A stretch of 64,000 nucleotides of DNA, from assembly GCF_009914755.1 (NCBI RefSeq), contig NC_060936.1; one strand, given 5' to 3'. Numbering within the stretch: the first letter of the stretch is position 1; each line of letters begins with the position of its first letter. This document shows, piece by piece, positions 9,600-42,976 of the stretch. The notes beneath the pieces were generated by a model, which was not told where the DNA came from, made no database searches, and saw nothing but the letters and a program-made list of their open reading frames with translations. The stretch is from the human T2T-CHM13v2.0 reference genome, Homo sapiens. Position numbers and translations under genes: made by a program.

Positions 9600-12500
9600 T
9601 AAAATGGGAATAATGTTTATCATAAAGAACTAATATTGGGGTTTAAATGAGGATAACAAATATAAAGTCAAGTGAAGTGTAGCACAAATTAAATATTGGT
9701 TGCATTTGTTTCACAAGACTCCCTTTAGCACAGATCTTTTTTTTTTCTTTTTTTTCTTTTAAAAATCATCATTTCAGGAAGAATGGAGTTGGGAGAAATC
9801 TGGTCTACTGGGTAGTTTAGAAAAGGATCTTTAGGGAGAGGGCGTATTTAGGGGCCTGGCTGATTTACAGTAAAAATGTCACAGAGCAGGGTCTTTAGAA
9901 TCTCCAAGTGAAGACTTTGAAGAGTCTAAAGGGGACAAAATAAGAATTCTTACTTGTGCAAAGGCAGCATGGTAGAGTGAAAACTAAAACAGACTGTGAA
10001 TTGATCAGTTACTCAACAAATGTAACAGTTATTTATTATGCACCTATTATTTGCCAGGTACTGTTTGATGCTTGGCATATAAGATCCTTGCTCTCTCTCA
10101 GGGAGTTTACACTTGTGGAGGGAGTGGGAAGACACAGACAATAAATATGAGAGAAGGTTGCAAATACTTAAGGATTGTGAATGCTGTGGGGTAGGGTAGA
10201 ATAGGTATCTAAGAGCTAGATGAGCACTACACAAAATGTGGCCTGTGATCAGTCTGAGAACTGTTCGCTTCTGGTCCTCTGTGAGATAAGAACTGAAATT
10301 GAGAGTTTATAGAAATTTTTACATCAATCTGATAATGTAATTTTATGTCAGTTGAGTCAAAACAATTAAAACTCATATTTTATATGCCTTATTTTTAATT
10401 TCATTTTTCAGGTAATTCATTGCCACCATATTTTACAATAGCATTGATCTACAGTGGGTTGAAAATAAAACACCAGTCTTTACTGTATTCATTTTAGCAG
10501 TGAGCTAGATCAACAGTTGCCATTGTTAGTACTATTAGTAAGCATGTTGTGGAGATTTTCAGCTTCTTTTGATGAATAATTCACTGTCAAGTAATTAGCT
10601 TATTTGGCTTAGAAATACTTACATCCATGTTATTTACACTATATTTTATGTTGGACTAAGTTATTTTAGGTCTTTTGATTTTCAAGTACTTTTATTCATG
10701 GTTGGATGCATGATACAGGTAGGAAGAGAACAAAATTAAAACTGTAAGGTATATAATAAGTGATTTCTTTTTTTAATTTTTAACTTCTAGATTCTGTTCT
10801 CAATGCTTAGATTATTTCTAACATTTTTTCTCAACTCATATTTTATGATCAGTATATGGTACTTAGAAAGCTCTTTTGATATAAGATCTTTCCTCCAACC
10901 AAGAGTTAATTTATGCATGAAATTGTATCATTATATTTGTCCCTATCACTTCATCTGCTGCTGGTGGGTCATAGATCCTGAGAAGAGAATATAGTTGTTT
11001 GAGGAAATTTATCATTGATAACCTAGATAATATTTTTGATTGTCTATATAAGTCTACCATTTGCTATTGATAAATGATAACTTTATGCGTCCCCTCATTT
11101 ATAGCCCCATTATCTTTTTTATGTGATAGGGGTAACTTAAGAAGTATGTTGAAGATAGCTGAAAATAAGATTTAAAAATATGGAAAATATTTTGGATAAC
11201 CCCTAGTAAGCATTTTAAGTACTTCTTTTCATTTTGTTATTTCAGATGCGGGACTAAACTAGTTTCTGGATTGTTACTTTAAAATGAAATTTAATATATC
11301 TCTAGCCTTAATGAAAATGGTAGTGGAGTAGAATTATGTATTAGTAGATAATAAATTAACTAAAAAATAAGTAAAAATAAAGAAAAGGGCCTTGCAGATA
11401 ATGACTCAACTCTTGCCTTGTCAGATCTGGCCAGTAAAAACAATACATGAATGATACAGGTTTGAAAAGAATGTGGCACAGACAGAATATTTTCTTGGGA
11501 AGACATTCGTAATTTAATGTGCCTAGGTTTTTATACTCAGCACATGCTTTGGTAATATTAACTAGTGGTAAATGTGTTGAATTATTTAACCATCATAATA
11601 GTGATACCTGAAGGTACACAATTCTTATTATTTGGTGAAATGTTAAACAATATACTTCTAAGAGCACATCTACTTAATAATGTTTACTATTTAATTGATT
11701 AGTTAAAATTTGAAAGGTAGTTGTAGAGTAGAATGAGGATAACATTAGGTAATGTGAATTATAATTTGTATTTTTAATGATTGCCAAACAGCAACCATTG
11801 AATTTACGTGGTCTGTGCCATAAGTAAGCTAAGGCTTTTGAATATCTCTGAGAGTTAAAAATATTTTTCTTGTGGTGGGGGGTGGAATTTCAGTTATATA
11901 AGAATTATAAATTGGTTTTCTTTTATTACCTGGATTTGAATTCTATTCAAATATGTATATCAAATATATGTAGATAACTAGATATATTCTAGAACCAGTC
12001 AGTACATGTTGGGGAACGAATGGGGAGGGTTTACTCAGCAGTACTCTCCTTTAGTTTGGTCATGAAATGAGGACTGCTTTATGTAAATTGTCCTTACTGG
12101 CGCCAGCTAGCTGTAACTGCAGTCTGGCTGTGCTAGGGTAGCAAATAAAATGTGTCATGGATTTTCTGTTTGGAATGTATAAGAATTCAGCCTTTTGGAC
12201 TGAAAGAACAGAGTTGATACATTAGAATAGCAGTAGTGAGACCACAATTGACAGTGAATATGTGAAATAGTGAGAAGCTATAAGCCTTTTAAGCTTTTAG
12301 TTCTTTTATAGGTTTATACCTATTGATACTATTGGGTAATATGTGGGAGGTACTTAACTGCACACAGTTGCTGCAGACCTAATAGTTGGCAGCATAGAAA
12401 GCAGTACAAAGAATTCTGATTCTAGGCATTTTCACTTTGAAATAGTCATTTTGAAGATATACTCTGTGTGTTCTGTGAGCTTCATTGACATATTGTCTGA

Positions 12501-14294
12501 CGTTTTTTGGCTTTTGTGGTAAATGGGATGTATGCTGCACAAACTACCCAACAGATGTGAACCACTATTTGAAAGGAATTTTAATATGTAGCCAACCTAC
12601 TGTATTCTTGTTTTTTTTTTAATGAATATGAATCAAACAAGAAATTTAGACTCGAGAAGGCTGACCTAGAAGTCTGCATTAGCTTTTAATGTTTATACAA
12701 ATGAACTAAGTAGCAGTGGTTTACAGAAGAGGAAGTCCTTTTCACAGTGTCAAGCTGCCCACAGGTAAGAGATTCAGGTCCTTTTTCTGTGACACCTACC
12801 CCCCAGGCTTTATGTTTTTCTCTCACCATTGGGAAGTTTTTAAAAATTTGTTTGTTTTTAGTTCTAATGAAAACAGGATTGGTAGATCGTTTCATGTTAA
12901 TATTCAGGAGATTTTGAATGCCACATTTGGATTTGGTATTTTTTAAAATGTAATTTTCATCTTCTCAAAATTCCTTCACATTTGAATTGAAATGAACTAA
13001 CAGTGGACTTCATATATGAATATTACTCATGCATACAATATGTTCATATTACATAGAAATCAGTTTTAGATCTCTTTTCATTATAGTCTGTTACTATATT
13101 CTCACTTGTAGTGACACCAACTGGTACACGCAGAGAGATGACATTTTGTAACCTCACTTAAGTATAAAGTTTTAGTTTAAATTTACCACTTTGAATTCAC
13201 CTTTACAAATCAGAGTGCTTATGTTTTCAAATATGGCTCATTGACATACATTAGATAATGTATATTTATACATATAACTTGGTCAATTTTCTACTTCCAC
13301 CCTTATTCTTTCCATTTCTCTATATTTAAATTTATTATTATTTTAATAAAGTGATTTTTAAAAGTCTAAAATGAATGTATTAATTAGGAATTCCACTAAA
13401 TTTAATATTTCTTAACCTGGGTTAAAGGAACACAGTCATTTGTTATTATTTTTTTCTATGCATGAAATATTGTATACAAAAATATAAAATTCCATTGCAA
13501 TAAAAATAATCTACTACCATTGCTGTAAAGATAGGAAGGTGTATGTTTATAAAGAAATGCCAATGTATGTGTTCATTCGTATCAGTATGGCCAGAAATAT
13601 ATTACTGATTGTAATAATTTTTGGAGGGTGGGTGAAGAGTTGAATAGCAGAGTAAAGTGAAGAGTGGTAGTGAGGTAGCTTAGAGTAGTGTATCAAAGAA
13701 AGGAATTACGTCAGGCAGCTCTCTGCTCTTTCCCTCCCTCTTTAGAAGTCAAGCAGCAGGCTCTTTCTGTAACCAAAGTGTTACTTTTAGGTGGGACTTC
13801 CAGTTCTCTAGTTTCTGAAAGTTTGGTCACTTATTGCTACATAGTTGTATACTTTAAAACTGGGGGCCAGCTGTGATAGAAGCCATACTCATGTTTCAGG
13901 GGCAGGAACTGTTCCTTACTTGTTGCCTTTTGACAGTGTTGCTTGGATTTAAAAAAAAAAAGCATATATTTTATTAAAGTATAGAAACGTAACTTTTTTG
14001 TGTATGTTTCATCTCAGTAAACAATTTCCCTATGATTGACAAAATGATGATAGTAGAAAGAAATCAATTTTGATTGATGTGTTTGAGGTTGGATGAGGAG
14101 AAGGTCATGCTTCTTGGTGTGGAAGACATACACATCTGAAACAGTAGGAAAAAGTTTTTCAAACTTCTCTTGTGCTATTATATTGGTTAGGGGAATGCTG
14201 GGCTGGGAAGATAGTTGAGATGGGCTAGTTTTTACATATAGACAAAGAGAAAAAGAGTTGATAGACAAAAACAGGAATTTATTGAATGCTGTTA

Positions 14295-24401: not shown

Positions 24402-25625
24402 AGTGTTTTTAAAAGCTTGGTTAAATTTCATTTAAAAATCTAACCACTGTTAAATATTTGGTTAAAAAGAGCCTCAGTTGGTGGATTACTCGTATAATTT
24501 TTACCCTTCCTCCAATGGAGCTTTTGTTACTTAAAATGGTTCTGTGTTCCTATATGTTTTAAAGGCATTGTTTCTAATCTTTAGTTCATGATTAAAATAA
24601 GTCCTCTACATATAATTTTTATATTAAGTGTTTAGGCTTTCGTAGTGTCAAATATATGAATTCATTTTGCATTTTGGATAACAAGTAGTGACCAAAGAAA
24701 CATTTTAAAATTAATTTGTCATTTCATCAAAACACACTACTGGATGGTTTCATATAAGAAATGCATAGAACAAGTACATTAATAAATAGCATTGGTTTTA
24801 ACATGACTTGGCTGTCAAACCAGCCATTCATTTCAGCAACTGTAATTTAAATTCTTGAAATTAAAAGGTTTTTTTTTTCTTTTTGTTTTCTCTTTCTTAT
24901 TTATTTATCTATTTATTTTTTGGTTTGGTTTGGTTTGGTTATTTCCTACTGATCTGTAATCCTCTTCATGATGTTATATTAGACTATACATTGTTTGACA
25001 TCTTTAGGAATTAAAATCCACTCCATAATAAATTTGTACTATACAAAGAGACATGCCTATTAAGCATTATTAGGCTGGAAAGGTAGAATGATGAAATGCA
25101 TTCTGTTATCTGGGTAAAGGAGTAAGAAATTTCAAGTATTGTCAACTTTAACATTACTCCACTTTAGGCAAAGTTGAAAAATCAAAAATAGCGGTGTTGT
25201 ACAGATTATTTATGTGCATGGTTAACTTTTACTTGACACAATCTTAAGATAATTTGTTTTTCTAACTGATAGAAATTATTTTAACTTAATTGAGAAAATA
25301 ATTATTGAATGCCTACTGTGTATAAGACACTACTTTTTGTGGAAAGAAGTTTGTGTTAAAAAAAGTATAAGGCATACTTCCTACCTTATTTTGAAGTCTG
25401 CTTTGGTAAGTTATTTAAGCTTTGTATTTTTAATACATATTAAGCAGTTTTTTAACCAACAAATCTGATTGACTCATAAACTTGCAGAAAAAAAGTGCTA
25501 GGAAAAATGTAGTACTGTTTAGAATTTGAGATTTTAGAGAAACTTTAATGTATTAGGACTGTGATTCAAGTGTTTTATGATTCTCCTGTAAATAGAAAAA
25601 CACTTAAATATATAGATATTGATGT

Positions 25626-25626
<1 letters not shown>

Positions 25627-25656
<30 letters not shown>
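25627..25656. repeat. (CA)15 microsatellite
   Basis: Direct reading. Confidence 0.95.
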
Positions 25657-25658
<2 letters not shown>

Positions 25659-25887
25659 TATATATGGACAGTGGCATGTTTCTTGAAAGTGGCCCATTTA
25701 TTTAGCTTAACATTCATTTCTTTAATTGGCACCTAATAAGTAAAGGTGTCAAGTTAATATTTTAGGTGATGAAATGCAAGGCACATATTTTTTTCCAAGA
25801 AAATAGAGTGTTTTTGCTGGAAGTTTTGCTTTTATATTCGCATCTATTCTAAGATTCCTGCTAGCATATTGTTTCTATTTTTAGGCT

Positions 25888-26064
25888 GTTGCCAGGCAGA
25901 TTTAAAATTTCTTCTCTTATGGCTGTCTAATTTCTATCTTCCTGATTGGTTACATGATGCTGCTTTTATTAGCCAACCACAGTGACTATGCAAATTGTAT
26001 TTCAGTTTCTGTTGCTGTGAAAGAACTGATAAGATGGCTGCAGGGGGCTCCCTTTGGGGTATGT
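25888..26064 (+). promoter_or_regulatory. Promoter/first-exon cassette A
   Basis: GTTGCCAGGCAG (25888), CTGATTGG (25942), AGCCAAC (25971), ATGCAAAT (25988), TTCAGTT (26001), AAGATGGCTGC (ATG 26034), donor GGG|gtatgt (26058|26059). Confidence 0.7.
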
Positions 26065-27681
26065 TTTTTATTTTAAAGAGGGTTTTCATCAATATGTAGT
26101 AAGAAGCAAAGGTAGATTTCTTTTAAAGGGGCATTTTATTTTTGAAATGGGAAATCAAACTAAGCAAGCTTTATAAAAGGCTGAAAAATGACTCTCTTGT
26201 GTATTTGATTAATTTTAATGCTGCTCTGTTTTGCCTCTATTAGGCAACTTATAAATGGGTATATTTTATTACTTTTTGTATGTAAACATGCCAGCATGCT
26301 AGTTTACAAGTCTGTTAAAATGTTCTAGATTATTGTCTTTGCTTTCTAAAAGAATAGTTTTTTTCATGTAGGAATTATTTTAGATGTCAGTTACGTGTAC
26401 ATAGCGCATCATTCTTTTAGCCAATACTTAATTGTATTCTATGTGCTCAACACTACGTAGTTCACTAATATTATACTAGAATACTTCATATTCTTCTTCT
26501 TTTGTGAAATGACCTCAGAAGCACATCATCATGATATCAGCATATTTAAGATGTTTTCTAATATCAAAGCTTTGGACACTTAAAATGTATTAATTTTCCC
26601 TGAGATTTGACAGAGATTAAAATTTGAAAGAAGTAATAATTTTATACTAGATACTCGATAAAAATGTCAAAGTGTTCCATTAAACAATACATAAATGTAG
26701 TATTAGAGTCCATTTATAATAAAAATTTCTAAAAGGATACCTTCAGAGCATTGGCAAATACAGAGAATGGTGGCAGAACATGCCATGTGAATAAAAACAA
26801 TATTGATAAAATGTGACAAAGCCATATGTAACATCAGAAAGTTCAAGAAGTATACCTCATTTAAAAACATTTATCATCATTAATTACATATAAGGCCTTT
26901 TGGTTATAGTACCATTTTATAATAAAAGAGAATGTTTCTGTTTCACTTAAGACTTTCTAGTCTTTCTGGTAAAAGATAGTTAATTGAATTTTCCATATGC
27001 GGAAGACTTTATTAATATTTGCTCCTGGAGGGGTCACCTGTGTCATGCTTAGTACTGCTTTGTCTTTTGTTTTTTGTTTTTAAATATCTTGCGTGAGTAT
27101 TTTATGCCCATTACTGCAATCCTGCAAGATGAGCATACTGTAGAATTATGTACCATTTGGGACAGGGAAAAAGAGTAATGAGCTCATCCAAGATGAGGAC
27201 ATAAGAGAACAAGGCTGCTGCTATTTTACACATACTGCCTTTCACCACCAATATAATCACAGATACACTTGTTGGCCTAAAAATGTGAACGCTCTAAAGT
27301 ATAAACCAACACTCGGTTCTCTTGGTATAGTTGTTCTGTCCATGTTGGAAGTGTGACCCAGTAAAGGGGTTTAGGTTAAAAATAAATGAAAAACACTCAA
27401 CTGAAGTTCTGCTATTTTTTTTAAAATATCTAGTTTATTGAGATACAGTTCACATGTCATACAATTCATCTGTTTGAGTGTATAATTCAGTGGTTTTCAG
27501 CATATTCACAGTCGCATAATCACCACAATCAATGTTTGAACATTTATATTACCCTATAAAGAAATCCTGTACCCTTTAGCAGCCAACCGTTATTTCCTCC
27601 CAGGCCTCCAACCCTAGGCAATTGGTAAGCCACTTTCTGTCTGTATAGATATAGATTTGCCTATTCTGGACATTTCATATA

Positions 27682-28378
27682 CATTAGTCCCCCCTTCTCC
27701 ACAGTTTTCGTTTTCTGTGGTTTTAGCTGTCTGTAGTCAACCGTGGGTAATATTAAGTGGAAAAATTTCAGAAATAAATAATTCATAAGTTTTAAATTTG
27801 GCACTGTTCTAAGTAGTGTGATGAAATCTCATGCCATTCTCTTCTGTCCTACGTAGGATATGAACCATCCCTTTGTCCAGTATGTCCAGCATATCTACAC
27901 TGTAGACGCTACCCACCCATTAGTCATTTAGGAGATGTCTGGGTTATTAGATCTGTGCTGGTATCACAATGTTTGTCTTAAAGTCACCCTTATTTTATTT
28001 AGTAACAGCTTCAACGTGCAAGAGTAGTGATGCTGGCAATTTGGATATGCCAAAGAGAAGCTGTAAAGTGCTTCCTTTAAGTGAAAAGATTAAAATTTTT
28101 GACTTAATAAAGGAAAGAAAGAATCATATGCTGAGGTTTCTAAGATCTATAGTAAGAACTATCTTATACTTCTGTGAAACGAACAGTATATTGTTATAAT
28201 TGTTCTATTTTATTATTAGTTATTGTCAATCTCTTACTGTTCCTAATTTATAAGTTAAATGTATGTATGTATGTATGTATAGGAAAAAACGTAGTATATA
28301 TAAGGTTCAGTACTATCCAGTTTCAGGCATTCAGTGGGTGTTTGGGAATGTATCTTCTATGGATAAGGGGGAATACCG
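27682..28378 (+). mobile_element. MER44 (TcMar-Tigger) DNA transposon
   Basis: Degenerate TIRs cattagtccccccttctcc / ggataagggggaataccg with TA duplication (27680-81, 28379-80), splitting the host L1. Confidence 0.85.
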
Positions 28379-28923
28379 TAAATGGAATCATTCACTATGT
28401 GGCCTTTCGTGACTGGCTTCTCTCACTCAGCATGTTTTCAAAGTTAATGCATGTAGTAGCATGTACAGTACTTCATTCCGTTTATGGCTGAATGATACTC
28501 TATTGTATGGATATACCACATTTTATTTATCCATTCATTAGTCACAGGGCATTTAGGTTGTTTCCAGTTTTGGGCCATTATGCGTAGTGCTTCTATAAAG
28601 CATTTGTGTACAAGTTTTTGTGTGGACATATGTTTTCATTTCTCTTGGGTATATACCTAGGAATGGAATTGCTGGATCATATGGCAACTCTGTGTTTCAC
28701 ATATTGTGGAACTGCCTGTTTTCCAAAGCAGCTGCACCTTTTTGCAATCCCACCAGCATTGTTTGAAGGTTCCAATTTATCCATATCCTTGCCAATACTC
28801 ATTATTCTTGTTGATTATAGCTGTCCTGGTGTGTGTGAGATGTTATCTCATTGTGGTTTTGACTTGCATTTTGCTGATGACTAATGATGTTTACTGCCTA
28901 TGAACTATTGGCTTATAAAAGCC

Positions 28924-29082
28924 ATAGCATTAGGAGAAAAACCTAATGTAGGTGACGGGTTGACGGGTGCAGCAAACCACCATGGCACTTGTATACCTAT
29001 GTAACAAAACTGCACATTCTGCACATGTACCCCAGAACTTAAAGTATAATAATAATTTTAAAAAAAACAGAAAAAGAAAAAA
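28924..29082 (+). mobile_element. 5'-truncated L1PA 3' end (~160 bp)
   Basis: atagcattaggaga...cagaacttaaagtataat plus poly-A; TSD aaaagcc (28917-23 / 29083-89). Confidence 0.9.
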
Positions 29083-30245
29083 AAAAGCCTTTTTGTGGAA
29101 ATGCCTGTTAAGTCCTTTGCTCATTTTAAAATGGAGTTATTTGGTGTTTTATTATTGAATTGTAACAGTTTTTATATATTCAAGATACAAGTCTCGTATT
29201 GGGTATATGGTTTGCAAGTATTTTCGTCCATTGTGTGAATTGTCTTTTCACTTTCTTAGTGGTTTCCTTTGCAGCACGAACAGTTTTAATTTTGATGAAG
29301 TTCAGTTAAACTTTTTTTTTTTCCTTCTTCTTTTATTGCTTCTTCTCTTTGGGTCATATCTAAGAAACCATTGCCTGTTCCAAATTTATGAAGATTTTAT
29401 GTCTTTGTTTCCTTCTAAGATTTTAGTTTTAGCTCTTAAATTTAGGTCTTTCATTTATAGGAATTAATTTTTGTATAAGGCAAGAAATAGGACTCCAACT
29501 TCATTCTTTTGCATGTGGCTATCCAGTTTTTCCAACACTCTTTGTTCAAAATACTATTCTTTCCCCATTGAATGGTCTTGTAACCCTTGTCTAAGACAAT
29601 TTACTGTAAAAGTGAGGGTTTATTTCTGTTCCAAAATATATCCTAAGGATATACCTGTCATTTTACTGGTAGTATCACACTGTCTAGGTTATTGTAGCTT
29701 TGTAATAACTTTTAAAAATGCAAAGTATGAGTTCTCCAAGTTTATTTTTCTTCTTCAAGATTGTTTTGGTTGTTCTGGGACCCTTGCATTTTCATATTAA
29801 TTTTAGGATCAGCTTACCAGTGTCTGCAAAGAAAATAGCTAGGATTTTGATAGAGATTGTTTTGAACCTGTAGCTTAATTTGAAGAGTGTTGACATCTTA
29901 AGGATTTGAGTCTTTTGATTCATGAGTATGGAACGTCTTTTATTTATTTATGTCTTTAATTTATTCAATAGTATTTTATAGTTTTCAGAATATTAAGTTT
30001 TGTACTTCTTTGGCAAAATTAATTTTTGATATTACTCTAAATGAGATTGTTTTATTTTTGGATCATTTGTTTCAAGGGTATAGAAATGCAATAGATTTTT
30101 ATATGTTAATCTTATTATAGTGAACTTTGTTAAACTCTTATTCTAATAAATTTTTAGTTGATTTCTTACTATTTTCTATATACAAGATTTTGTTATCTGT
30201 AAATAAAAATAGTTCTTTCTTTTTTTTTTAAGTTGTATGACTTGT

Positions 30246-30541
30246 GGCTGGGTGTGGTGGCTCATGCCTGTAATCCCAGCACTTTGGGTGGCCGAGGCAG
30301 GTGGATCACCTAAGCTTGGCAGTTTGAGACCAGCCTGGCCAACATGGTGAAACCCCGTCTCTACTAAAAATACAAAAATTAGCCAGGCTTGGTGGTTCAC
30401 ACCTGTAATTCTAGCTACTCAGGAGGCTGAGGCATGAGAATCACTTGAACCCAGGAGGCGGAGGCTACAGTGATCTGAGATTGTGCCAGTGCACTGCAGC
30501 CTGGGTGACAGAGAGGGACCATGTCTCAAAAAACAAACAAA
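30246..30541 (+). mobile_element. AluS
   Basis: Sense Alu; TSD aagttgt(a/t)tgactt. Confidence 0.9.
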
Positions 30542-31881
30542 AAGTTGTTTGACTTTTATTTCATTTTCTTGCCTAATTCTCCTGGCTAGAACTTCTAGTT
30601 CAATGCTGACTAGAAATGGTGAGGGCAGATATCTTTTGTTCTGATCTTAGGGTGAAAGATTTCAGTCTTTGACCATTAAGTATGATAGCTGTGGGTTTTT
30701 CCTTGGTGCCCTTTATCAGGTTGAGGAAATCCTCTTCTATTCTTAGTTGGTTGAGTGAATTCTGCTCTTAATTGCTATGTTAAATTAAGGATGAGATAAT
30801 TTAATACTTAGAAAGCTGCTGGTAATACTCTTGTAGCTAATACATGAAGCAGTCAGCAGGCTGGTGAAATTGGGGAGGGAGTCTACTCTCAGGTCTCATT
30901 TACTGAGTAGATAGGTATTACCAGTGATCTTAAATGGCATCTCCATTTTCAAAGAGATAAAGAAGACAATTGCTGAACATTCTATTAAAATGGTACCAAA
31001 ACTTAAATGATGAAATGCATAAGAAGGGTTCCTGTGCTGAAGAAAACAACTTGGTACTGAATTGGGTGTCTGCTTTACCTTACCAAGTTAAAATTACTAT
31101 TTGTGTAATTATTGATAGTAATATAATTATTGATTTATTAATTCACATCATATGTAAAGTTGAAATTAATATAAATTATCACATAAACTAATGAGAAAAG
31201 GATATGTTTTGTTATAGTGACTCACATATATTATTCCTCGATAAGCATCAGTTTCTTTTTCTCCTTTCAAGGTGTGTAATAAAAGGGTTTTTTTTCAAGG
31301 TGTTAATAAAAGGCAGAATTTATAAGGCATGGTTGGGAATAATAAACATCAAATTCAAGATTATGCTTATCTTTGCATTTAGGAGTCAAGAATGGAGAAG
31401 AAGGAGTAAGCTGTTGTGTTGTACAGGGCACTTTATTTTTATTTCATAATAAAAAATTATATGTGTCAGTATAGCTAAAACTTGAGCTAGAATGGAACTT
31501 AGCAAGCATCTGCCCTAACTTCTTCAGTTTTACAGTTGAGGAAACTGAACTCCAGAGAGTTAAATTGATTTATTCTATGGTGGTTGTATACTAATGTTAG
31601 AACATGGAATAGAACCTAGTTTTGTTAGTTCAGAAGTCTTTTTGTTATGCCAAGCTTTTTAGAATATGTGTATTTTAAAGTGTGATAGTTTGCATGATAT
31701 TTTATAATTATACTTCTTTACAGCAAGAGGATTATATGTCCCTACCTTTTGCCATGTGACATGAGGTGTTTCCCCTTGGGAGGTTTTTTACTTCCCATGC
31801 CCTTAGTGACTTAATTTGGTTTTAGCCAATGGAATGTGAATGAAAGTAATGTACACCATGTCTAAGCAAAAGCTTTAAAAT

Positions 31882-32082
31882 AAGCTTGTCCTGCCGAGGG
31901 CCCACAGGCTGCATAGAGCCCAGGGCTGTTTTGAATGTAGCCAAACACAAATTTGTAAACTTTCTTAAAACATTATGAAATTTTGTTTTTCAGCTCATCT
32001 GCTATCGTTAACGTATTTTATGTGTGACCCAAGACAGTTCTTTCATTGTGGCCTAGAGAAGCCAAAAGTTTGGACACCCTAG
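31882..32082 (-). mobile_element. MER30 (hAT-Charlie) within an MLT1-like LTR relic (~31720-32270)
   Basis: aagcttgtcc...cacaaatttgtaaactttcttaaaacattatg...gccaaaagtttggacaccc. Confidence 0.8.
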
Positions 32083-32447
32083 CTAAAAGCTATTGTATAC
32101 TGTATATCTCTGTCATATTGGTCTTTTACCTCTGCCACAAGGCCTAGATGGGGTGAGGGGGTGCTGTTCCTTCAGCCTGGTGTCCTAGAATAATGAAAAA
32201 GTATACAGTTATTAGCCAGTGAAATTTTATTGTTGTTGCTGCATTATCATCTAGTAAAAGGTGACTGACACAGAAAGTTAGCTGTCCAGCTTTTCTCTTT
32301 AGGTTGGGTTAATAAGAAAAGTAAGAGTTATTTCCAGGCATTTGAAGGATTTACATCTTTCAGCTCCTCATACCTCATTCTGGGTGTTTTACTTCACCCA
32401 AGCAAAATGTGAAAAGTACGTTTGGACAAATGATTTCTACTGCTGGT

Positions 32448-32581
32448 TATTTATTTATTTTTTTAATGAGACCTGGTCTTGCTGTGCTGCCCAGGTTGGT
32501 CTCTACCCTTTAGGCTCAAGCAGTCCACTGCCTCAGCCTCCCAAGTAGCTGAGATTACAAGTATGTGCCACTGCGCCCAGC
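32448..32581 (-). mobile_element. Alu monomer (FLAM-like)
   Basis: ~130-bp single arm; TSD tggacaaatgatttct. Confidence 0.85.
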
Positions 32582-33289
32582 TCTGGACAAATGATTTCTT
32601 AAATGCCTGTGGAGATAAATACAAGACCTTCTGTAACTTCACTCCTTATCTGCATAGGGATAGTAGAGTTTGGCAAGCTAGTGAGTAGGGCCTTGATGGA
32701 AAATTGGCCAATTTTCTAAGGGGGTGTAATTTGCTCTATGTATTCTAAAATGGCATTTGTTGGATCAGGTCATTTAATTTTATTTTGCCCATGTAACACA
32801 ATGATCCCAAAAATTGACTTGGAGAAGTAATTTTAAGGTATCTTATGTTTTTATCATGTGGACCATTCCAAAATTTCTGAAAACATAGCACTGAATGCAA
32901 CAAGAAGTTAGATTGTAGTGACAGTTCTGGCTTTGATGTAACCAAACTTTTAAGGACATGATTTACTCCTGCCTTGTCTGGGGAATTGTTGGTAACCTTG
33001 TCTAGGGAATTGTTGGTAAAGCAAACTCCCAATTTCCTTTGTGGTTGGTTATTTTTTACAATTTAGTTTGGGGATATTGCATTCCACATTTTGGTCGGTG
33101 ACAGGCAGAGGGGTTAATTTGTGAAAGTGTCAAATATTATGATCACTTGATAACTTACTCAACTGAGTTTATGAGTATTTGATAAACAGATTTCACCACT
33201 TACTGTTTTTTTTTTTTTTTTTAAGATGGCAGGATAGCTAGTGACAGTTATTTTATACCAGTTAAGAGAACCGTAGCTGACAATGCAAC

Positions 33290-33490
33290 AGTGTAACATC
33301 TGTTTACATAGCCTTTATGTTATACTGGGTATTATAGGTAATTTAAAGATAATTTAAAGTATACAGCAATATGTGCATAGGTTATATGCAAATACTACAC
33401 TACTTTATATAAGGGACTTGAACATTGTCAGATTTTGTTATCTGTAGGGAGTCCTGGGACCAGTCTCCCACAAATACTGATGGACATGGT
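33290..33490. mobile_element. MER2/Tigger-type DNA transposon fragment
   Basis: tgtgcataggttatatgcaaatactacac...ataagggacttga motif. Confidence 0.7.
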
Positions 33491-34274
33491 ATTTAAAATA
33501 AAAATTTCAAAATCTTTATACTAAATTTGAGCAGATAAGTATCAAAGTGAGTGAACAGATTCAGTAGTCTATTTAATGGGCAGTAAGCAGTAAAGCAGAT
33601 TATTAGCATCTTTTGTGCAACCCACTATTCTTTATGATTTTATTTTTAGAGTATTGCAAATTCTCAAGCAAAATTTAGAAGTGTAAAATAAAATCATACA
33701 GTTTTCAACTGAGAATGGGATTCTTAAAGAATCTAATAGCAGAGTTGCATTTCTAAAGAGGTTAGAAATTATCAGCATAAAGTGATTATTTAATTCAGCC
33801 ATTTAATGAAAATAAACTCAAATTAAAATTATTTTCAGTAGAAAAATGAATGAAATTTTTATTCAGAAAAATGTTGTACTCTCAGGCAACAGCATGAATA
33901 TAATTGGAATGCCTTTGTCAAAGATAGAAATGCCATGTCCACTTAAAAGGTTTTGCTTGATGTTTTCTAAGCTTTTGCTTTAGTTTTATTTTGAAGTATA
34001 CTTCATCAGATATTCATTACTTTGAATTAATACAGCATTTGTTTTGTCTATGTGTTGTATATGCTTTTTGACCCAACAATCGTGGTACTTAGTTAAGTCT
34101 GTTCTTGGAAAGCAGTACAGACCCTAGTTTATTTAATCAAAGAAACCCTACCATGACCTGTTTTTCAAACAGAGCATCTAGAGTTATATTCCTAATGTTT
34201 CCATTTCATTGTTCACCTTGATTTTCACATCCTTTGCATTTTTAATAGAGCTCTTGCCCTCATCTTCTTCCCTT

Positions 34275-34463
34275 GTTGCTGGGCAAGGTTTGTGACACTG
34301 ATGTCTGATTGGTTTTAGACTATTTCGGCTTTGAGCCAATCAGACAGTGAATTTCAGTTCTCTCACAGGACTGAAACATTGAAGCAGCTGTTGATATATT
34401 TTTCCTGTGGGGAGATTATATAAACTAAGAGTATGGCTGCAGCAAGCTCCCTCTTGGGTATGT
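34275..34463 (+). promoter_or_regulatory. Promoter/first-exon cassette B
   Basis: GTTGCTGGGCAAG (34275), CTGATTGG (34305), AGCCAATCAG (34334), TTCAGTT (34353), ATGGCTGC (34433), donor TGG|gtatgt (34457|34458). Confidence 0.75.
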
Positions 34464-35375
34464 TTGAAAAATTACAAGGTTCATCTGTAAGGAAGGGGGG
34501 AAATGAGGTTTATTTTTAAAACTTGGTTATTAAGAACACCTAATAAGTAGTGAATTTGAGAAAAAAATTCTGATAACAAATTTTCCATTTTTATTTTATA
34601 ATCCTATATTTAAAGAACTATAGAATGGTGTAATATAATAAAAATGTCTTTAATTTTCATGAATATTTACTTTGTAATCCACACATTTGTTTTATAATAA
34701 AGCTTTGAAAGGATATCTCATATAACCTTTTGTAACTTGCTGCGAAAGGCAGTTAAGGAGAAAAGGATGTAGTAATTGTACTTATACCACTTAATATAGG
34801 TTGTCCAGAATCAGACATTTAGATTTCATTAGATGAATTAAACTAAGTCAGTTCAGTGCAGTAGACAGCACAACACTTCATAATACTATCCCTAGTAATC
34901 CTTTGGGTCCAGAATACTATTAATTTTTGGAATCGGAAATCTGTAACAATAGTGGTAGATGGGTATGAAGATTTTTTTTTTACTTGTCTGGATTTAAGGT
35001 TTTGCTAGATTTATATATTTTATATATATGGTCTATGGAATTTTTAAAAAGAAATTTACATTTGAATTTTGCATTGTATAGAAAAATATGTTCTTACGTA
35101 TATTGTCCATGTTTGACTTATTCCTCAGGTAGGAAATTAATTTATATTAATGTATATTTCTTGAAATGTTCATGGATATTTATTAAAGCAAATAGCATAA
35201 AAGATGTAAATCTCATCCATTTATGTGTGTGGTATATTTAATGCGTGTTACGTGGATTTAGGGTTTTATGTAAACTGTGTTCTAGATTACTTATTTCAAA
35301 CAAAGAACCACACTTAAGTATTGCAGATACAGTTTTTGTTTAACTATGTTTTTCTGACCTTATTGTCTGTCTCCT

Positions 35376-35510
35376 GTTGCTGGGCAGGAATCAGAATGCT
35401 GGCTGCTGATTGGCTGAGTTTGTGAGCAGCTCTTGAACAGCCATTTAAATTCTTGAGCTTTTTGAGCAGGCAGATTGTAGGCTAAGACATAACAGCTTCC
35501 CTTTGTTGTT
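35376..35510 (+). promoter_or_regulatory. Degenerate promoter cassette C
   Basis: GTTGCTGGGCAG (35376) and CTGATTGG (35406) with the same 30-bp offset as cassette B; only a remnant GCTTCCCT downstream; no ATG or donor. Confidence 0.5.
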
Positions 35511-36061
35511 TCATTGCTATGATCTCTTGCTAGAAAGAAGTGGGTGGAGGGGGATGAAGCAGAGAAGAGAGTAATGTTTTCATTTAAAGAAGAAGCTCGT
35601 TGGGCTTTCCTTAAAAATATTTTAAAAATAATTTACCAAAAATTTGAAAAAAAAATTTCCAAGCCAGAGAGACTTATTTGCAGGTAACATACCCTTCTCT
35701 GGTTATTTAAATATAAATTCCTATAGAAAAAGGTTTTATTAGTGATATTATTTTCCCAGAGTTCTTGAATATACAGAGACTTAAAAAACATTATTTTGAC
35801 TCTCATCCTCATGAAAAAAATACTTTCAGGAGAAACTAGTTCATCATGTTTTGCAGTTACTTTTAGACATGGCAGACATCTTCTGCCGTAAAATACCAAT
35901 GCTTTTTTCTGTGAAAATGAATTACAGTCATGTGAAAGCTTTCTGATTTGAGTTGCCACCTAAAATACTAACATTTATTTTATAGAATAGTTTTATGAAT
36001 GGCATGTTAGTTCTAGGCGACAGTACTAAAATGATCCTTGGAAGTGTTTTGCACTGGTATT

Positions 36062-36303
36062 ACAGCCATGGAAACTTGTTTGCAGGTAACACACCCTTCT
36101 CTAATGTGTATCTTTCTCAAATATGCTTCGCTAATGCAAAATACATTTCTAAAAGCAGACTGCTGATTGGTTTGTACAGATATGGCTGAACTAGTTTGAA
36201 CTAATTGTTCGTGTTACTTCCTTATTGCTTTGTCTGTTTTTTATTATATTTAGAACCCATAAGATCTGGTAAATGGCTGTAGTGTGCTCCCTTGTGGGTA
36301 TGG
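36062..36303 (+). promoter_or_regulatory. Promoter/first-exon cassette D
   Basis: CCATGGAAAC X-box half site (~36066), CTGATTGG (36163), AAATGGCTG (ATG 36273), donor TGG|gtatgg (36297|36298). Confidence 0.62.
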
Positions 36304-36803
36304 ATGGTAGTTATTCTATAATTCTTTTTAGAGTGCTTTATTATTACTGAAGTTAATGACAATTTTATTGATAAAATCAACTTTTCTTAAATTATATATT
36401 TTTATTAAATATTATTTGGTGGTGGCAATTTAATATTAACTGTGAGGTTTACATGTTGGATTTTCTAATTTATATAAAAAATACCAAAGAGGAATTTGTC
36501 TTAGACTCTTTAGTTTATTCCTAAAAACATTATCCTGAATATTTAGTTTATTCCTAAAAACGTTATCCTGAATATATAGATGGTGATGGTTATACCATTT
36601 ATTGAGTTCTTACTACATTCCAAGTGCTTAATGTATAGAATCTCATTTAGTTCTCATGGCAACCTTTGTGACAGGTGTTGGTATTAGTCCCTTTTTAAGG
36701 TAACCAAAACTAAGAAATTGATGTTAGGTAATTTGCCCAGTCTCACACAGTAGGTTTCCTGGGAGAGTTGGAATTCAAATCTGTGAATCTGTCTACAGTC
36801 TAC

Positions 36804-36937
36804 AGAGTTCATGTTCTTAATTGGGTTATTAAAAGTGATGAATTTTTTTAAAGGAATGCTTACTTTTAATGTAAGAGTTCATGTTCTTAATTGGGTTATT
36901 AAAAGTTATGAATTTTTTAAAAGGAATACTTTTAATG
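36804..36937. repeat. ~70-bp tandem duplication; a separate ~33-bp tandem duplication lies at ~36510-36575
   Basis: agagttcatgttcttaattgggttattaaaagt(g/t)atgaatttttt...aaggaat occurs twice. Confidence 0.9.
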
Positions 36938-37464
36938 CAATTGGTAATAACTACCAGCTGTCCATCTAATATCTGAGAAATGCGGATATTATGAGGCTAA
37001 AGTTCAAAAGAATGGCCTTTCAGTATTTTGAAATACTTAAAGGGTAACTATACTACTTATATTATAAACTTAATTATTTTGTAGTTTTGGAATTAGTAAG
37101 GAAAAGTGACAGCAAAATACAATGCATTGTATCTGTATCTTTTGCAGAAAATTTTGCAGTTAGCAAAACTTTGTAATGATGGGAAGGGAAAAACCTTGAA
37201 GGTGTGAAATTTTAGTCTGTAATTAAAAACCCTTAACATAATGTTTTGTATTATATTATACAAATTTTGTATAATTTTGTATTAAGGTTTTGTATTATTA
37301 TATATACATTTTGTATTAAGGTTTCTGTTTAAATGAAGAGTAATTTTTCTAAATAGTTGATTTAGTTATATAATTTAAATAAAATGGCTAGAATAAGAAA
37401 TATGTTCTAAGTAATTGGCTTAAAGTGAGAGAATGAATACAGAATGTATCACAGTCTAGAAATT

Positions 37465-40905: not shown

Positions 40906-41418
40906 TCTTTTGTTAATATGTTTATAGTTCTGCCAATCTAAGTATGCTTGGTTGCAAATGTAATCTTTCCTTACATGTTTCTTAATTCTTCCTCCTTTTT
41001 CCTTTATCTCTATACCTGTTATTTCCCTACTGTTGTTCTTACACTTTTATTTTTCTTTCTCATTTTCTTCAGGTACTTTTTTTTTTTTTTTTTTTTTTTT
41101 TACTTTATCTACCTTTTTTTTGCTTAAACATCTCCATACTCTGTGAATTCCATATTGGAAAAAAAAACTTGTCCCTTTTCCCCCTAATACTTTCTAGTTG
41201 ATTTTCTAGTAGACTATGGCCATTTTTGATTTTGTATTACACAGATGCAGTAAATATGATAATTAGTATACAACAAGCAGTAGGTTTTCTATGTCTTAAA
41301 CATTACATGAAGTGTGCTGCTTGCATCTCTTCTAAGATCAATTTGTATTAAGTCTACAATTAGGTGGCTTCTGTTTCAGTTATTAAACTCTCTTTCTCTT
41401 TTTTCTTAAAGATTCAGA

Positions 41419-42976
41419 ATGGACAGTTTAGAAGAACCTCAGAAAAAAGTCTTTAAGGCTCGAAAAACGATGAGAGTGAGTGATCGTCAGCAACTTGAAG
41501 CAGTGTACAAGGTCAAAGAAGAACTGTTGAAAACTGATGTCAAGCTGTTAAATGGCAACCATGAAAATGGAGATTTGGACCCAACCTCACCTTTGGAAAA
41601 CATGGATTACATTAAAGACAAGGAAGAGGTGAATGGCATTGAAGAGATTTGTTTTGATCCTGAAGGAAGTAAAGCAGAATGGAAGGAAACACCCTGTATC
41701 CTAAGTGTTAATGTAAAAAACAAGCAGGATGATGATTTAAATTGTGAACCTTTGTCTCCCCATAATATAACTCCAGAACCAGTCTCTAAACTGCCTGCTG
41801 AACCAGTTTCTGGTGATCCAGCCCCTGGTGATCTGGATGCCGGAGATCCAGCCTCCGGAGTACTGGCCTCTGGTGATTCCACCTCTGGTGATCCCACCTC
41901 TAGCGAGCCCTCCTCTAGTGATGCTGCCTCTGGTGATGCAACCTCTGGTGATGCCCCTTCTGGTGATGTGTCCCCTGGTGATGCCACCTCTGGTGATGCC
42001 ACTGCTGATGATCTCTCCTCTGGTGATCCCACCTCTAGTGATCCCATCCCAGGTGAACCGGTCCCTGTTGAACCCATTTCTGGTGATTGTGCCGCTGATG
42101 ATATAGCCTCTAGTGAAATAACTTCTGTTGATCTGGCTTCTGGAGCACCAGCTTCCACTGATCCAGCCTCTGATGATCTGGCCTCTGGTGATCTATCCTC
42201 TAGTGAACTGGCCTCTGATGATCTGGCCACTGGTGAACTGGCCTCTGATGAGCTGACTTCTGAATCAACCTTTGATCGTACCTTTGAACCAAAGTCTGTA
42301 CCAGTTTGTGAACCAGTTCCTGAAATTGACAATATAGAACCAAGTAGCAATAAAGATGATGATTTTCTTGAAAAAAATGGAGCTGATGAAAAATTAGAGC
42401 AAATTCAGAGTAAAGACTCATTGGATGAGAAAAATAAAGCTGATAATAATATTGATGCTATTGAAGAAACTCTAGAAACAGATGATACAACTATTTGTTC
42501 AGATCGACCTCCTGAAAATGAAAAGAAGGTAGAGGAAGATATTATCACAGAGCTTGCTCTTGGAGAAGATGCTATATCTAGCAGTATGGAAATTGACCAA
42601 GGTGAAAAGAATGAAGATGAAACTTCTGCAGATCTTGTAGAAACGATTAATGAAAATGTTATTGAAGATAACAAAAGTGAGAATATCTTAGAAAATACAG
42701 ACTCTATGGAGACAGATGAAATCATTCCTATTTTGGAAAAGCTTGCACCTTCTGAGGATGAACTTACTTGCTTTTCTAAAACATCTCTCCTTCCAATCGA
42801 TGAGACAAATCCAGATTTGGAAGAGAAAATGGAAAGTTCTTTTGGTTCACCATCTAAACAAGAAAGTAGTGAGAGTTTGCCAAAAGAAGCCTTTCTGGTC
42901 CTCTCTGATGAAGAGGATATTTCGGGTGAAAAAGATGAGTCTGAAGTTATATCGCAAAATGAAACGTGCTCTCCAG
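41419..42976 (+). CDS. ATF7IP: ATF7IP first large coding exon (exon 2; exon spans 41412-42976 with 7 nt of 5'UTR), aa 1-519 plus 1 nt
   Basis: ORF MDSLEEPQKKVFKARKTMRVSDRQQLEAVY... recognised as ATF7IP/MCAF1. Polypyrimidine tract plus aag|ATTCAGA-ATG acceptor (AG 41410-41411); donor CAG|gttagc; 1558 coding nt, phase 1. Confidence 0.97.
41806..42270 (+). repeat. ATF7IP: Coding 15-bp tandem repeat (~31 pentapeptide units, consensus ASGDx; DNA GCCTCTGGTGATnnn)
   Basis: VSGDP APGDL DAGDP ASGVL ASGDS TSGDP ... ASDEL TSEST read in uninterrupted 5-aa register. Confidence 0.9.

What the first reader, a model, noticed from the sequence alone, without database searches (positions are those of the whole stretch)
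25888..36303. Array of paralogous promoter/first-exon cassettes in the ATF7IP 5' intron (variable first exons, constant body)
Seen: three non-transposon segments end in the same 30-mer. A (26034): ATGGCTGCAGGGGGCTCCCTTTGGG|GTATG. B (34433): ATGGCTGCAGCAAGCTCCCTCTTGG|GTATG. D (36273): ATGGCTGTAGTGTGCTCCCTTGTGG|GTATG. 23 of 30 positions are invariant, there are no indels, and each has exactly 25 nt from ATG to a GT donor. All have an upstream CTGATTGG. A, B and C have GTTGCYRGGCA; the offset to CTGATTGG is 30 bp in both B and C. A and B have a second, opposite-facing AGCCAA exactly 29 bp after CTGATTGG, then ACAGTGA and ATTTCAGTT. Established: these match RFX X-box, NF-Y CCAAT, initiator and YY1 (AAnATGGC) motifs plus a 5' splice site. 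Inference: an ancient tandemly duplicated set of alternative promoters, architecturally like Pcdh/UGT1A variable first exons, with motifs kept while spacers decayed. Individual exons may already be annotated; I do not know of their paralogy being described.
Basis: partly seen in the sequence, partly recalled or inferred. Interest (0 to 1): 0.88.

Follow-up and report, generated by a model that had tools for sequence, protein, structure and literature searches.

The report
Duplicated alternative first exons of ATF7IP
Inside the first intron of the human ATF7IP gene lie three to four old, related copies of a small "promoter plus untranslated first exon" unit, which probably change when and how well the gene's message is made and translated, not the protein itself.

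Summary
The 30-mers at 26034, 34433 and 36273 are as quoted, with 23 of 30 positions invariant. Across the whole T2T genome the pattern matches exactly only at these three sites. The cassettes are not in masked repeats and find nothing else in the genome.

RefSeq already lists A (26004-26058), B (34356-34457) and C (35477-36085) as alternative first exons spliced to exon 2. D is not annotated.

Paralogy is supported by BLAST for A-B (E 3e-6), which extends about 60 nt into the intron, and for A-D (E 7e-5). The X-box/CCAAT composite shared by A, B and C occurs four times genome-wide, three of them here.

Predicted ATF7IP proteins of a dog and a turtle carry the translated module at their N-terminus, so it is old.

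In human the exons are non-coding. Their ATG opens a 14-codon upstream reading frame that overlaps the main start codon.

So this is an array of paralogous alternative promoters and leader exons. It resembles Pcdh/UGT1A in layout only. Transcription-factor binding, tissue use and activity of D are untested.

The parts
25888..25900 (+). Cassette A: X-box-like site (GTTGCCAGGCAGA), 116 nt upstream of the annotated start.
   Evidence: It is one of only 3 GTTGCYRGGCA sites in 94 kb.
25942..25949 (+). Cassette A: inverted CCAAT box (CTGATTGG), at -62.
25971..25976 (+). Cassette A: second box AGCCAA, 29 bp after CTGATTGG. It reads CCAAC here, so it is not a perfect CCAAT.
25999..26007 (+). Cassette A: ATTTCAGTT. 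The RefSeq start at 26004 is the A of TCAGTT, an initiator-like position.
26004..26058 (+). Cassette A: annotated alternative first exon (NM_001388181.1), 55 nt. It has a single upstream ATG at 26034.
26021..26063 (+). Cassette A: conserved exon-end module (30-mer at 26034-26063, extended to 43 nt) with donor GGG|GTATGT.
   Evidence: Bases 26022-26057 translate to the same 12 residues as the N-terminus of a dog ATF7IP model.
26064..26127 (+). Intron flank of A that still aligns with the flank of B.
   Evidence: BLAST of 26024-26127 against 34423-34519: 70 of 104 columns identical, E 3e-6 in 94 kb.
34275..34287 (+). Cassette B: X-box-like site (GTTGCTGGGCAAG), at -81.
34305..34312 (+). Cassette B: inverted CCAAT box (CTGATTGG), 30 bp after the X-box, at -51.
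34334..34343 (+). Cassette B: second, opposite-facing CCAAT box (AGCCAATCAG), 29 bp after the first.
34351..34359 (+). Cassette B: ATTTCAGTT. The RefSeq start at 34356 is the same A as in cassette A.
34356..34457 (+). Cassette B: annotated alternative first exon (NM_001388182.1), 102 nt. It has a single upstream ATG at 34433.
34423..34519 (+). Cassette B: conserved exon-end module (30-mer at 34433-34462) plus the intron flank homologous to A.
35376..35413 (+). Cassette C: X-box-like site and CTGATTGG at the same 30-bp offset as in B. The 12 letters TGTTGCTGGGCA are identical to B.
35477..36085 (+). Cassette C: annotated alternative first exon (NM_001388183.1 and NM_001388184.1), 609 nt, with many upstream ATGs. 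It uses a different kind of donor, CAG|GTAACA.
35662..35700 (+). Second, unannotated copy of the C-type exon end and donor. It is 87% identical to 36064-36102.
   Evidence: E 1e-6.
36064..36102 (+). The C-type exon end and donor used by RefSeq (exon ends at 36085).
36163..36170 (+). Cassette D: CTGATTGG. The 11 letters CTGCTGATTGG are shared with C.
36261..36302 (+). Cassette D: third copy of the exon-end module (30-mer at 36273-36302), donor TGG|GTATGG. It is not annotated as an exon.
   Evidence: (A-D E 7e-5). Its main-frame translation matches a turtle N-extension at 7 of 9 residues.
41412..41431 (+). Start of the constant exon 2: acceptor at 41412, main ATG at 41419, and the TAG at 41429-41431 that ends the upstream reading frame opened in A, B or D.

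Best explanation
**What it is.** The region holds a small tandem family of alternative promoter plus 5'-leader-exon units of ATF7IP. The family arose by old local duplication.
- A and B are complete units. In order they carry an X-box-like site, an inverted CCAAT box, a second CCAAT-like box 29 bp on, an initiator at which transcription starts, a short leader, and a conserved exon-end module with a modest GTATG donor.
- C keeps the X-box/CCAAT part but uses another exon body and another donor.
- D keeps a CCAAT box and the exon-end module, but has no shown transcript.
- All are CpG-poor, unlike the CpG-island main promoter.

**What is shown.** Each unit splices to the same exon 2, so the protein is unchanged. 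In A and B the only upstream ATG is the one in the module. It sits in a good context and opens a 14-codon frame that ends 13 nt past the main ATG.

**What is inferred.**
- The units give ATF7IP extra transcription inputs restricted by tissue or stage, through RFX-type and NF-Y-type factors.
- Their messages are translated less well from the main ATG, or partly from Met18, than the main message, whose leader has no upstream ATG.
- The module itself is kept by selection on the nucleotides (a YY1-like site, the donor and its surroundings), not on a peptide.
For: **Alternative first exons**
- RefSeq lists six alternative first exons, all joined to 41412. They include A, B and C.
- The starts of A and B are the same base of the shared ATTTCAGTT.

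**Paralogy of the exon ends**
- Only A, B and D lie within 11 mismatches of the A 30-mer in 94 kb.
- BLAST gives A-B E 3e-6 over 104 columns reaching into the intron, A-D E 7e-5, and B-D E 0.07.
- Genome-wide, the 3 exact pattern matches are these sites.

**Shared promoter module**
- GTTGCYRGGCA followed 15-50 nt later by CTGATTGG has 4 genome-wide matches, 3 of them here. The reversed control gave 1.
- 5 of the 6 CTGATTGG sites in 94 kb are in the cassettes.

**Not a repeat**
- No masked repeat of 100 bp or more overlaps the cassettes.
- Whole-genome DNA searches with A, B and C+D found only the query itself.
- There is no Rfam match.

**Promoter type**
- CpG observed/expected is 0.07-0.25 at A-D, against 0.90 at the main promoter.

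**Upstream reading frame**
- A and B each have one upstream ATG, 14 codons long, ending 13 nt after the main ATG.
- The main leader has none. A and B have A at -3 and G at +4.
- In the main frame A, B and D have no Met and are closed 9-12 codons before the donor.

**Age, and nucleotide-level rather than peptide-level constraint**
- A dog protein model begins with 12 residues identical to the translated end of human A.
- A turtle model ends its N-extension with GCSVLPHG, against human D GCSVLPCG.
- Two marsupial (sugar glider) models, isoforms X1 and X4, begin MLPCG.
- The same letters are read in different frames in dog, turtle and human.
Against: - Outside the motif blocks, the promoter parts of A, B, C and D do not align better than shuffles. 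With strict local alignment, 264 of 1000 shuffles reached the A-B score, 14 of 1000 the B-C score and 42 of 1000 the C-D score. Collinear k-mer chains did not single out the cassettes.
- C's membership therefore rests on one composite motif. That motif could have been assembled by selection rather than inherited.
- D has no annotated transcript, has T at -3 of its ATG, and has a poorer donor.
- No binding, expression or ribosome data were available here.
- Only 3 of the 44 distinct N-extensions seen in other species resemble the module, and I did not see their nucleotide sequences.
- The dog model implies a 1-nt shorter exon end. The frame of the upstream ATG is therefore not conserved, which weakens any reading that depends on the exact 14-codon frame.
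Confidence: 0.7

Rival explanations
1. The exons are, or were, coding variable first exons. Either they are read in the main frame as an N-terminal extension, as gene models in other species do, or in human they give an N-truncated ATF7IP when A, B or D is spliced to exon 3, skipping exon 2.
For: - The dog, sugar-glider and turtle models read the module as an in-frame N-terminal extension.
- In the main frame, several differences among A, B and D are silent or conservative: TGC/TGC/TGT for Cys, TTG/CTT for Leu in A and B, and AGC/AGT for Ser in B and D. This is read from the 30-mers.
- The ATG plus 25 nt leaves the same phase as the end of exon 2. Joining to exon 3 would therefore keep the ATF7IP frame, giving MAAGGSLW followed by AEVESNEK....
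Against: - In human, the main frame upstream of all three donors has no Met and is closed within 9-12 codons.
- None of the 14 RefSeq ATF7IP transcript models in the window (13 mRNAs, 1 non-coding) skips exon 2.
- No isoform of about 750 aa appeared among the 120 listed of 1149 hits, although clustering at 90% identity could hide one.
- Matching phase has a one-in-three chance.
- The dog reads the letters in a different frame from the turtle, which argues against one conserved peptide.
Confidence: 0.12
2. The shared promoter motifs, especially C's X-box/CCAAT pair, were assembled independently under selection for the same factors. Under this reading only the exon ends A, B and D are true duplicates.
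For: - Generic alignment of the promoter parts is not significant.
- C has no 30-mer and D has no X-box.
Against: - B and C share the same 30-bp offset and 12 identical letters around the X-box.
- A and B share the same 29-bp offset between the two CCAAT-like boxes, and the same order of five blocks.
- The composite occurs only once elsewhere in 3.1 Gb.
Confidence: 0.1
3. The cassettes are fragments of an old dispersed repeat or transposon that happened to be taken up as exons.
For: None found. Only repeats of 100 bp or more are listed in the mask table, so a short old fragment could escape it.
Against: - The pattern has no other exact match in the genome. Its 2 near-matches are one duplicated chrX locus, at about the number expected by chance.
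- DNA searches with A, B and C+D return only the query itself.
Confidence: 0.02
4. The module is kept because the RNA forms a small hairpin that encloses the 5' splice site and controls its use.
For: - RNAalifold predicts a CCC/GGG stem across the exon-intron junction in all three copies.
- It also predicts an outer stem in which the variable triplet pairs with intron bases +7 to +9. Two pairs change on both sides.
Against: - 62 of 500 column shuffles reach the same covariation and pairing.
- Single-sequence energies are ordinary, with z-scores from -0.05 to -0.78.
- There are only three sequences.
Confidence: 0.06

Closest known systems
Genes with multiple variable first exons in tandem, each with its own promoter and spliced to common downstream exons (Pcdh alpha/gamma, UGT1A, GCNT2; the class described by Zhang, Haws and Wu 2004)
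   Same: - Tandem paralogous first exons.
- An own promoter for at least A, B and C.
- One common acceptor.
- A shared promoter element, as in the Pcdh promoters (that comparison is recalled).
- PMC1885805 (passages seen) describes such clusters as evolving by birth and death of variable exons.
   Different: - Here the variable exons are 55-609 nt leaders that add nothing to the human protein.
- The array has only three to four members, two of them incomplete.
- The Zhang et al. paper itself was not held. What I say of it is recalled.
X-Y regulatory module of MHC class II-type promoters (RFX complex on the X box, NF-Y on a Y box read as CTGATTGG)
   Same: - An X-box-like site upstream of CTGATTGG, in the same order and orientation.
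- A fixed 30-bp offset in B and C.
   Different: - No conserved X2/CRE-like site sits next to the X box.
- The letters between X and Y differ completely between B and C.
- The offset is 54 bp in A.
- The MHC anatomy is recalled and was not tested here.
X-box-driven promoters of male germ cells (RFX2 targets such as Alf)
   Same: X-box close to the start of a CpG-poor, TATA-less promoter. PMC2797782 (passages seen) shows that an X-box in the minimal Alf promoter is needed for the RFX2 response and is occupied in vivo.
   Different: No expression or binding data exist here for ATF7IP. Target lists are in supplements that I could not open.
Overlapping upstream reading frames that dampen translation of the main frame
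   Same: A single upstream ATG in good context, out of frame, ending after the main ATG.
   Different: The effect was not measured. The frame is not conserved in the dog model.
[quoted passage not shown]
   Same: ATGGCTG, preceded by AAG in A, lies +30 to +78 from the annotated starts. [quoted passage not shown]
   Different: - The match to the YY1 matrix was not scored here.
- The site in B is farther downstream than the usual window.

Membership tests
Variable-first-exon cluster (Pcdh/UGT1A kind) | Tandem array of first exons related by duplication. | tested here: met
   A-B E 3e-6, A-D E 7e-5 and B-D E 0.07 in 94 kb. Only these three lie within 11 mismatches of the A 30-mer.
Variable-first-exon cluster (Pcdh/UGT1A kind) | Each variable exon has its own promoter and start. 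| tested here: inconclusive
   Annotated starts exist for A, B and C, but not for D. No CAGE data were available.
Variable-first-exon cluster (Pcdh/UGT1A kind) | All variable exons splice to the same constant exons. | tested here: met
   A, B and C join 41412 in RefSeq. D is unknown.
Variable-first-exon cluster (Pcdh/UGT1A kind) | The variable exon encodes a variable part of the protein. | tested here: not met
   In human the main frame has no Met and is closed 9-12 codons before each donor. The ATG gives a 14-codon out-of-frame peptide.
MHC class II-type S-X-Y module | X box followed by a Y box (CTGATTGG) at a fixed distance. | tested here: inconclusive
   The offset is 30 bp in B and C but 54 bp in A.
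MHC class II-type S-X-Y module | X2 (CRE-like) box next to X1, and an S box upstream. | tested here: not met
   The letters between X and Y share nothing between B and C. The S box was not looked for.
MHC class II-type S-X-Y module | Occupancy by RFX5/RFXAP/RFXANK, NF-Y and CIITA. | not testable with these tools
   No ChIP data were available.
Overlapping upstream reading frame | Upstream ATG, out of frame, with its stop beyond the main ATG. | tested here: met
   A, B and the putative D exon each give 14 codons ending 13 nt after the main ATG.
Overlapping upstream reading frame | Ribosome occupancy and an effect on main-frame translation. | not testable with these tools
   No ribosome profiling was available. 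A search for ATF7IP with uORF found 2 papers, neither relevant.
Dispersed repeat / transposon fragment | Many related copies across the genome. | tested here: not met
Known structured RNA (Rfam) | Match at or above a family's gathering score. | tested here: not met
   0 matches in 25000-37000 on both strands.

The most novel reading that the evidence does not exclude
The ~30-43-nt exon-end module is an amniote-wide regulatory device, kept in several copies, that ties promoter choice to what the ribosome does at the ATF7IP start. Depending on one-base differences and on which ATGs are present, the same letters are read in three ways. They give an in-frame N-terminal extension in the dog, sugar-glider and turtle models. 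They give an overlapping upstream frame in human A and B. If exon 2 is skipped, they would give the start of an N-truncated ATF7IP that lacks the first 519 residues. Under this reading the alternative promoters would set the dose or form of this SETDB1 cofactor in particular cell types, with the germ line as a guess.
Probability: 0.15. Interest if true: 0.6.

Novelty: new member of a known kind. Interest (0 to 1): 0.4.

Why it matters
ATF7IP stabilises SETDB1 and is needed for H3K9me3 silencing, as recounted in passages of PMC5651703. Its dose therefore matters.

The exons themselves are already in RefSeq. Three things seem not to be in print, as far as my eight searches reach:
- Three of the exons are copies of one ancient unit.
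- The copies keep a 30-nt leader end across amniotes.
- In human this end opens an upstream frame over the main start codon.

This gives a concrete, testable handle on promoter-specific control of ATF7IP. It is also a tidy example of variable first exons that are non-coding. It does not change any general picture.

Tried and rejected
**1. Generic similarity of the promoter parts**
- Strict Smith-Waterman against 1000 dinucleotide shuffles was not significant for A-B, A-C and A-D, and only marginal for B-C, B-D and C-D.
- A permissive scan put A as the best hit of B among 1260 windows (z 4.9) and C second (z 3.1). However, the best hit of A was an unrelated AT-rich stretch, and D found no cassette.
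- Collinear k-mer chains were swamped by low-complexity matches.

**2. More copies**
- There are none in chr12:14230001-14324000, by BLAST or by Hamming scan.
- There are none in the first 80 kb of the paralogue ATF7IP2, which also served as a control.

**3. Near-matches elsewhere**
- The chrX near-matches lie between XAGE1 copies, and the chr20 X-Y match lies in a BCAS1 intron. I take them as chance.

**4. RNA hairpin at the donor:** not supported.

**5. Exon-2-skipping isoform:** no support in RefSeq or among the listed proteins.

**6. Peptide-level selection on the 14-codon frame**
- Of the 7 variable columns, only 2 are third positions in that frame, read. No sign of such selection.

**7. 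Literature**
- ATF7IP combined with alternative promoter, uORF, RFX or first exon gave nothing on these exons (passages read).
- Supplementary tables, such as ChIP target lists or gene lists of variable-first-exon surveys, were closed and might hold relevant rows.

**8. Orthologous DNA:** none from other vertebrates could be fetched with these tools, so the cross-species evidence is from predicted proteins only.

Full report
**What is there**

- They agree pairwise at 25, 25 and 24 of 30 positions, 23 positions are invariant, and there is no indel.
- Each runs 25 nt from an ATG to a GT donor (GGG|GTATGT, TGG|GTATGT, TGG|GTATGG).
- The other motifs are also in place:
  - CTGATTGG at 25942, 34305, 35406 and 36163, with an inverted copy at 34336.
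  - GTTGCYRGGCA at 25888, 34275 and 35376.
  - An X-to-Y offset of 30 bp in B and C, and 54 bp in A.
  - AGCCAA 29 bp after CTGATTGG in A and B.
  - ACAGTGA and ATTTCAGTT in both A and B.

**Is it more than chance**

The degenerate pattern was made from the sites, so its 3 matches against none in 100 shuffles say little. The tests below do not depend on that.
- I used the A 30-mer alone against 94 kb (chr12:14230001-14324000) on both strands. Only A itself, B (5 mismatches) and D (5 mismatches) lie within 11 mismatches. The next nearest 30-mer has 12.
- In the whole T2T genome the pattern matches exactly only at these three places. With up to 2 mismatches there are 2 more, with identical letters, in the two arms of the XAGE1 region on chrX. 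The reversed control gave none.
- By my own arithmetic, about 0.2 such near-matches are expected in a genome of this size. I therefore take the chrX locus as chance.

**Not a repeat**

- No masked repeat of 100 bp or more touches the cassettes.
- Whole-genome DNA searches with B (221 nt), A (211 nt) and C+D (971 nt) found only the query itself.
- Rfam has no match in 25000-37000.

**What the annotation already says**

RefSeq gives ATF7IP six alternative first exons, all joined to exon 2 at 41412:
- the main exon, 16.8 kb upstream of the window;
- 2794-2913, which carries an in-frame ATG;
- 12375-12764;
- A (26004-26058, NM_001388181.1);
- B (34356-34457, NM_001388182.1);
- C (35477-36085, NM_001388183.1 and NM_001388184.1).

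D is not annotated. 'Variable first exons, constant body' is therefore already public for A, B and C. The annotated starts of A and B are the same letter, the A of TCAGTT inside the shared ATTTCAGTT. This fits a true initiator kept in both copies.

**Paralogy**

- A sensitive BLAST of each cassette against the 94 kb gives B as the best non-self hit of A. The alignment is 26024-26127 against 34423-34519, 70 of 104 columns identical, E 3e-6, and it reaches about 60 nt into the intron.
- D is the next hit of A (43 nt, 81%, E 7e-5). B-D is weak (30 nt, E 0.07).
- The same search against 80 kb of the ATF7IP2 locus gave nothing below E 0.02.
- For the promoter parts the picture is mixed.
  - The composite 'GTTGCYRGGCA, then 15-50 nt, then CTGATTGG' occurs 4 times in 3.1 Gb, 3 of them here and 1 in a BCAS1 intron. 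The reversed control gave 1.
  - 5 of the 6 CTGATTGG sites in the 94 kb are in the cassettes.
  - Ordinary alignment of the promoter parts is not better than shuffles for A-B, A-C and A-D, and only marginal for B-C (14 of 1000), C-D (42) and B-D (58).
  - My k-mer chain tests did not single out the cassettes.
  - A permissive scan ranked A first and C second for B. It did not rank B first for A, and found nothing for D.
- I conclude as follows.
  - A, B and D share an exon end by descent.
  - A and B are full paralogues.
  - C most likely shares its X/Y module with B by descent (same 30-bp offset, 12 identical letters), but this is less sure.
  - C and D are incomplete units.
- C also has its own small duplication. 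Its donor region at 36064-36102 has an 87% identical, unannotated copy at 35662-35700.

**Age**

I could not fetch other vertebrate genomes. Three protein searches gave 174 ATF7IP proteins, of which 80 have an N-terminal extension before the main Met, in 44 distinct forms.
- A wolf/dog isoform (P0050) begins MRELIRWLQGAPFG and then continues into exon 2. Human A, translated in that frame, reads VKELIRWLQGAPFG up to its donor. That is a 12-residue exact run anchored at the exon end in both.
- A softshell-turtle isoform (P0149 and P0150) ends its extension with HGCSVLPHG. Human D in the main frame reads NGCSVLPCG, so 7 of 9 residues agree in the same register.
- Two sugar-glider isoforms (P0118 and P0151) begin MLPCG.
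- A 4-residue run in a lizard is not anchored and is at the level of my control.
- These are predicted proteins, and I did not see their DNA. Still, the module seems to date to early amniotes.
- The dog model needs an exon end 1 nt shorter than in human. The 'no indel' rule therefore holds for the human copies only.

**What the exons do in human**

- In the main frame, A, B and D have no Met and are closed 9-12 codons before the donor. They add nothing to the protein.
- The ATG of the module is the only upstream ATG in exons A and B. Joined to exon 2, it gives 14 codons (ending DSEWTV) and stops at the TAG at 41429-41431, 13 nt past the main ATG.
- A and B have A at -3 and G at +4. D has T at -3. 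The main leader (146 nt, 70% GC) has no upstream ATG.
- The alternative promoters are CpG-poor (observed/expected 0.07-0.25), whereas the main one is a CpG island (0.90).
- My reading is as follows. These are extra, probably tissue-restricted promoters, driven through RFX-type and NF-Y-type sites. Their messages are translated less well from the main ATG, or partly from the in-frame Met18, which is visible.
- The factor names, the tissue and the translational effect are inferences. PMC2797782 (passages) shows an X-box promoter working in male germ cells. PMC8384218 (passages) recounts YY1 motifs just downstream of human starts. Neither paper concerns ATF7IP.

**Why the module is kept**

- The same letters are read in three frames across the dog, turtle and human models.
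- In the human upstream frame, only 2 of the 7 variable columns are third codon positions.
- I therefore favour selection on the nucleotides: a YY1-like ATGGCTG, the donor and its surroundings.
- In the main frame several differences are silent, so an old coding role cannot be ruled out.
- ATG plus 25 nt has the same phase as the end of exon 2. Joining to exon 3 would therefore give an in-frame N-truncated protein. However, none of the 14 RefSeq ATF7IP transcript models in the window skips exon 2, and no such protein was among the 120 listed of 1149 hits.
- A small hairpin across the donor is predicted, with two covarying pairs. It is no better than 62 of 500 shuffles, and the folding energies are ordinary.

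**Comparison and verdict**

- The layout is that of the variable-first-exon class (Pcdh, UGT1A, GCNT2). PMC1885805 describes that class (passages). The 2004 survey it cites was not held, so what I say of it is recalled.
- The defining coding feature is not met here.
- The X-Y pair recalls the MHC class II module, but without a conserved X2 box, and with a different offset in A.
- Eight literature searches found nothing on these cassettes. Supplements were closed.
- I file this as a new member of a known kind. It is real, tidy, moderately interesting and directly testable.

Noticed in passing
window 35662-35700 and 36064-36102: There is a second kind of duplicated exon end, 87% identical and 402 bp apart, with donor CAG|GTAACA. 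The downstream copy is the RefSeq donor of exon C. The upstream one is unannotated. If it were used, the ATG at 35574 would be in frame with the main ORF, giving a 39-residue extension.
   Followed up: partly
window 2794-2913: The alternative first exon with the in-frame ATG at 2897 gives the extension MHQDQRFR in human. Near-identical extensions (MHQDQRFK and variants) head ATF7IP proteins of many eutherian orders in the hits, so this coding first exon is widely conserved.
   Followed up: partly
window 2780, 2832, 25919, 26034, 34433, 35438, 36063, 36182, 36273: 9 of the 17 ATGGCTG sites in 94 kb (both strands) lie in or next to the alternative first exons. Two flank the start of the 2794 exon, and one on the minus strand lies just upstream of a TTTAAA about 30 nt before the start of C.
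   Followed up: partly
window 36215-36297: A pyrimidine-rich tract ending in AG at 36253 precedes D. D could therefore also serve as a 44-nt internal exon (36254-36297) after exon C, rather than as a first exon.
   Followed up: no
G000 chrX:51760580-51760609 (+) and 51808685-51808714 (-), loci L004 and L005: Two identical near-matches to the 30-mer pattern (2 mismatches) lie in the inverted XAGE1 duplication, between genes. This is probably chance.
   Followed up: partly
G000 chr20:55745978-55746024 (-), locus L013: This is the only other genome-wide match to the X-box/CTGATTGG composite. It has a nearly palindromic X-box and lies in an intron of BCAS1.
   Followed up: no
window 36804-36931, 36504-36569, 32972-33019: Three small local tandem duplications lie in the intron: 58 nt at 95% identity, 33 nt at 91% and 24 nt at 96%.
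   Followed up: no
proteins P0013, P0120-P0124, P0126, P0129-P0132, P0149-P0174: Marsupial, bird, turtle, lizard, alligator and frog ATF7IP models carry many different N-terminal extensions before the main Met. Numerous alternative first exons seem to be a general feature of this gene in tetrapods.
   Followed up: partly
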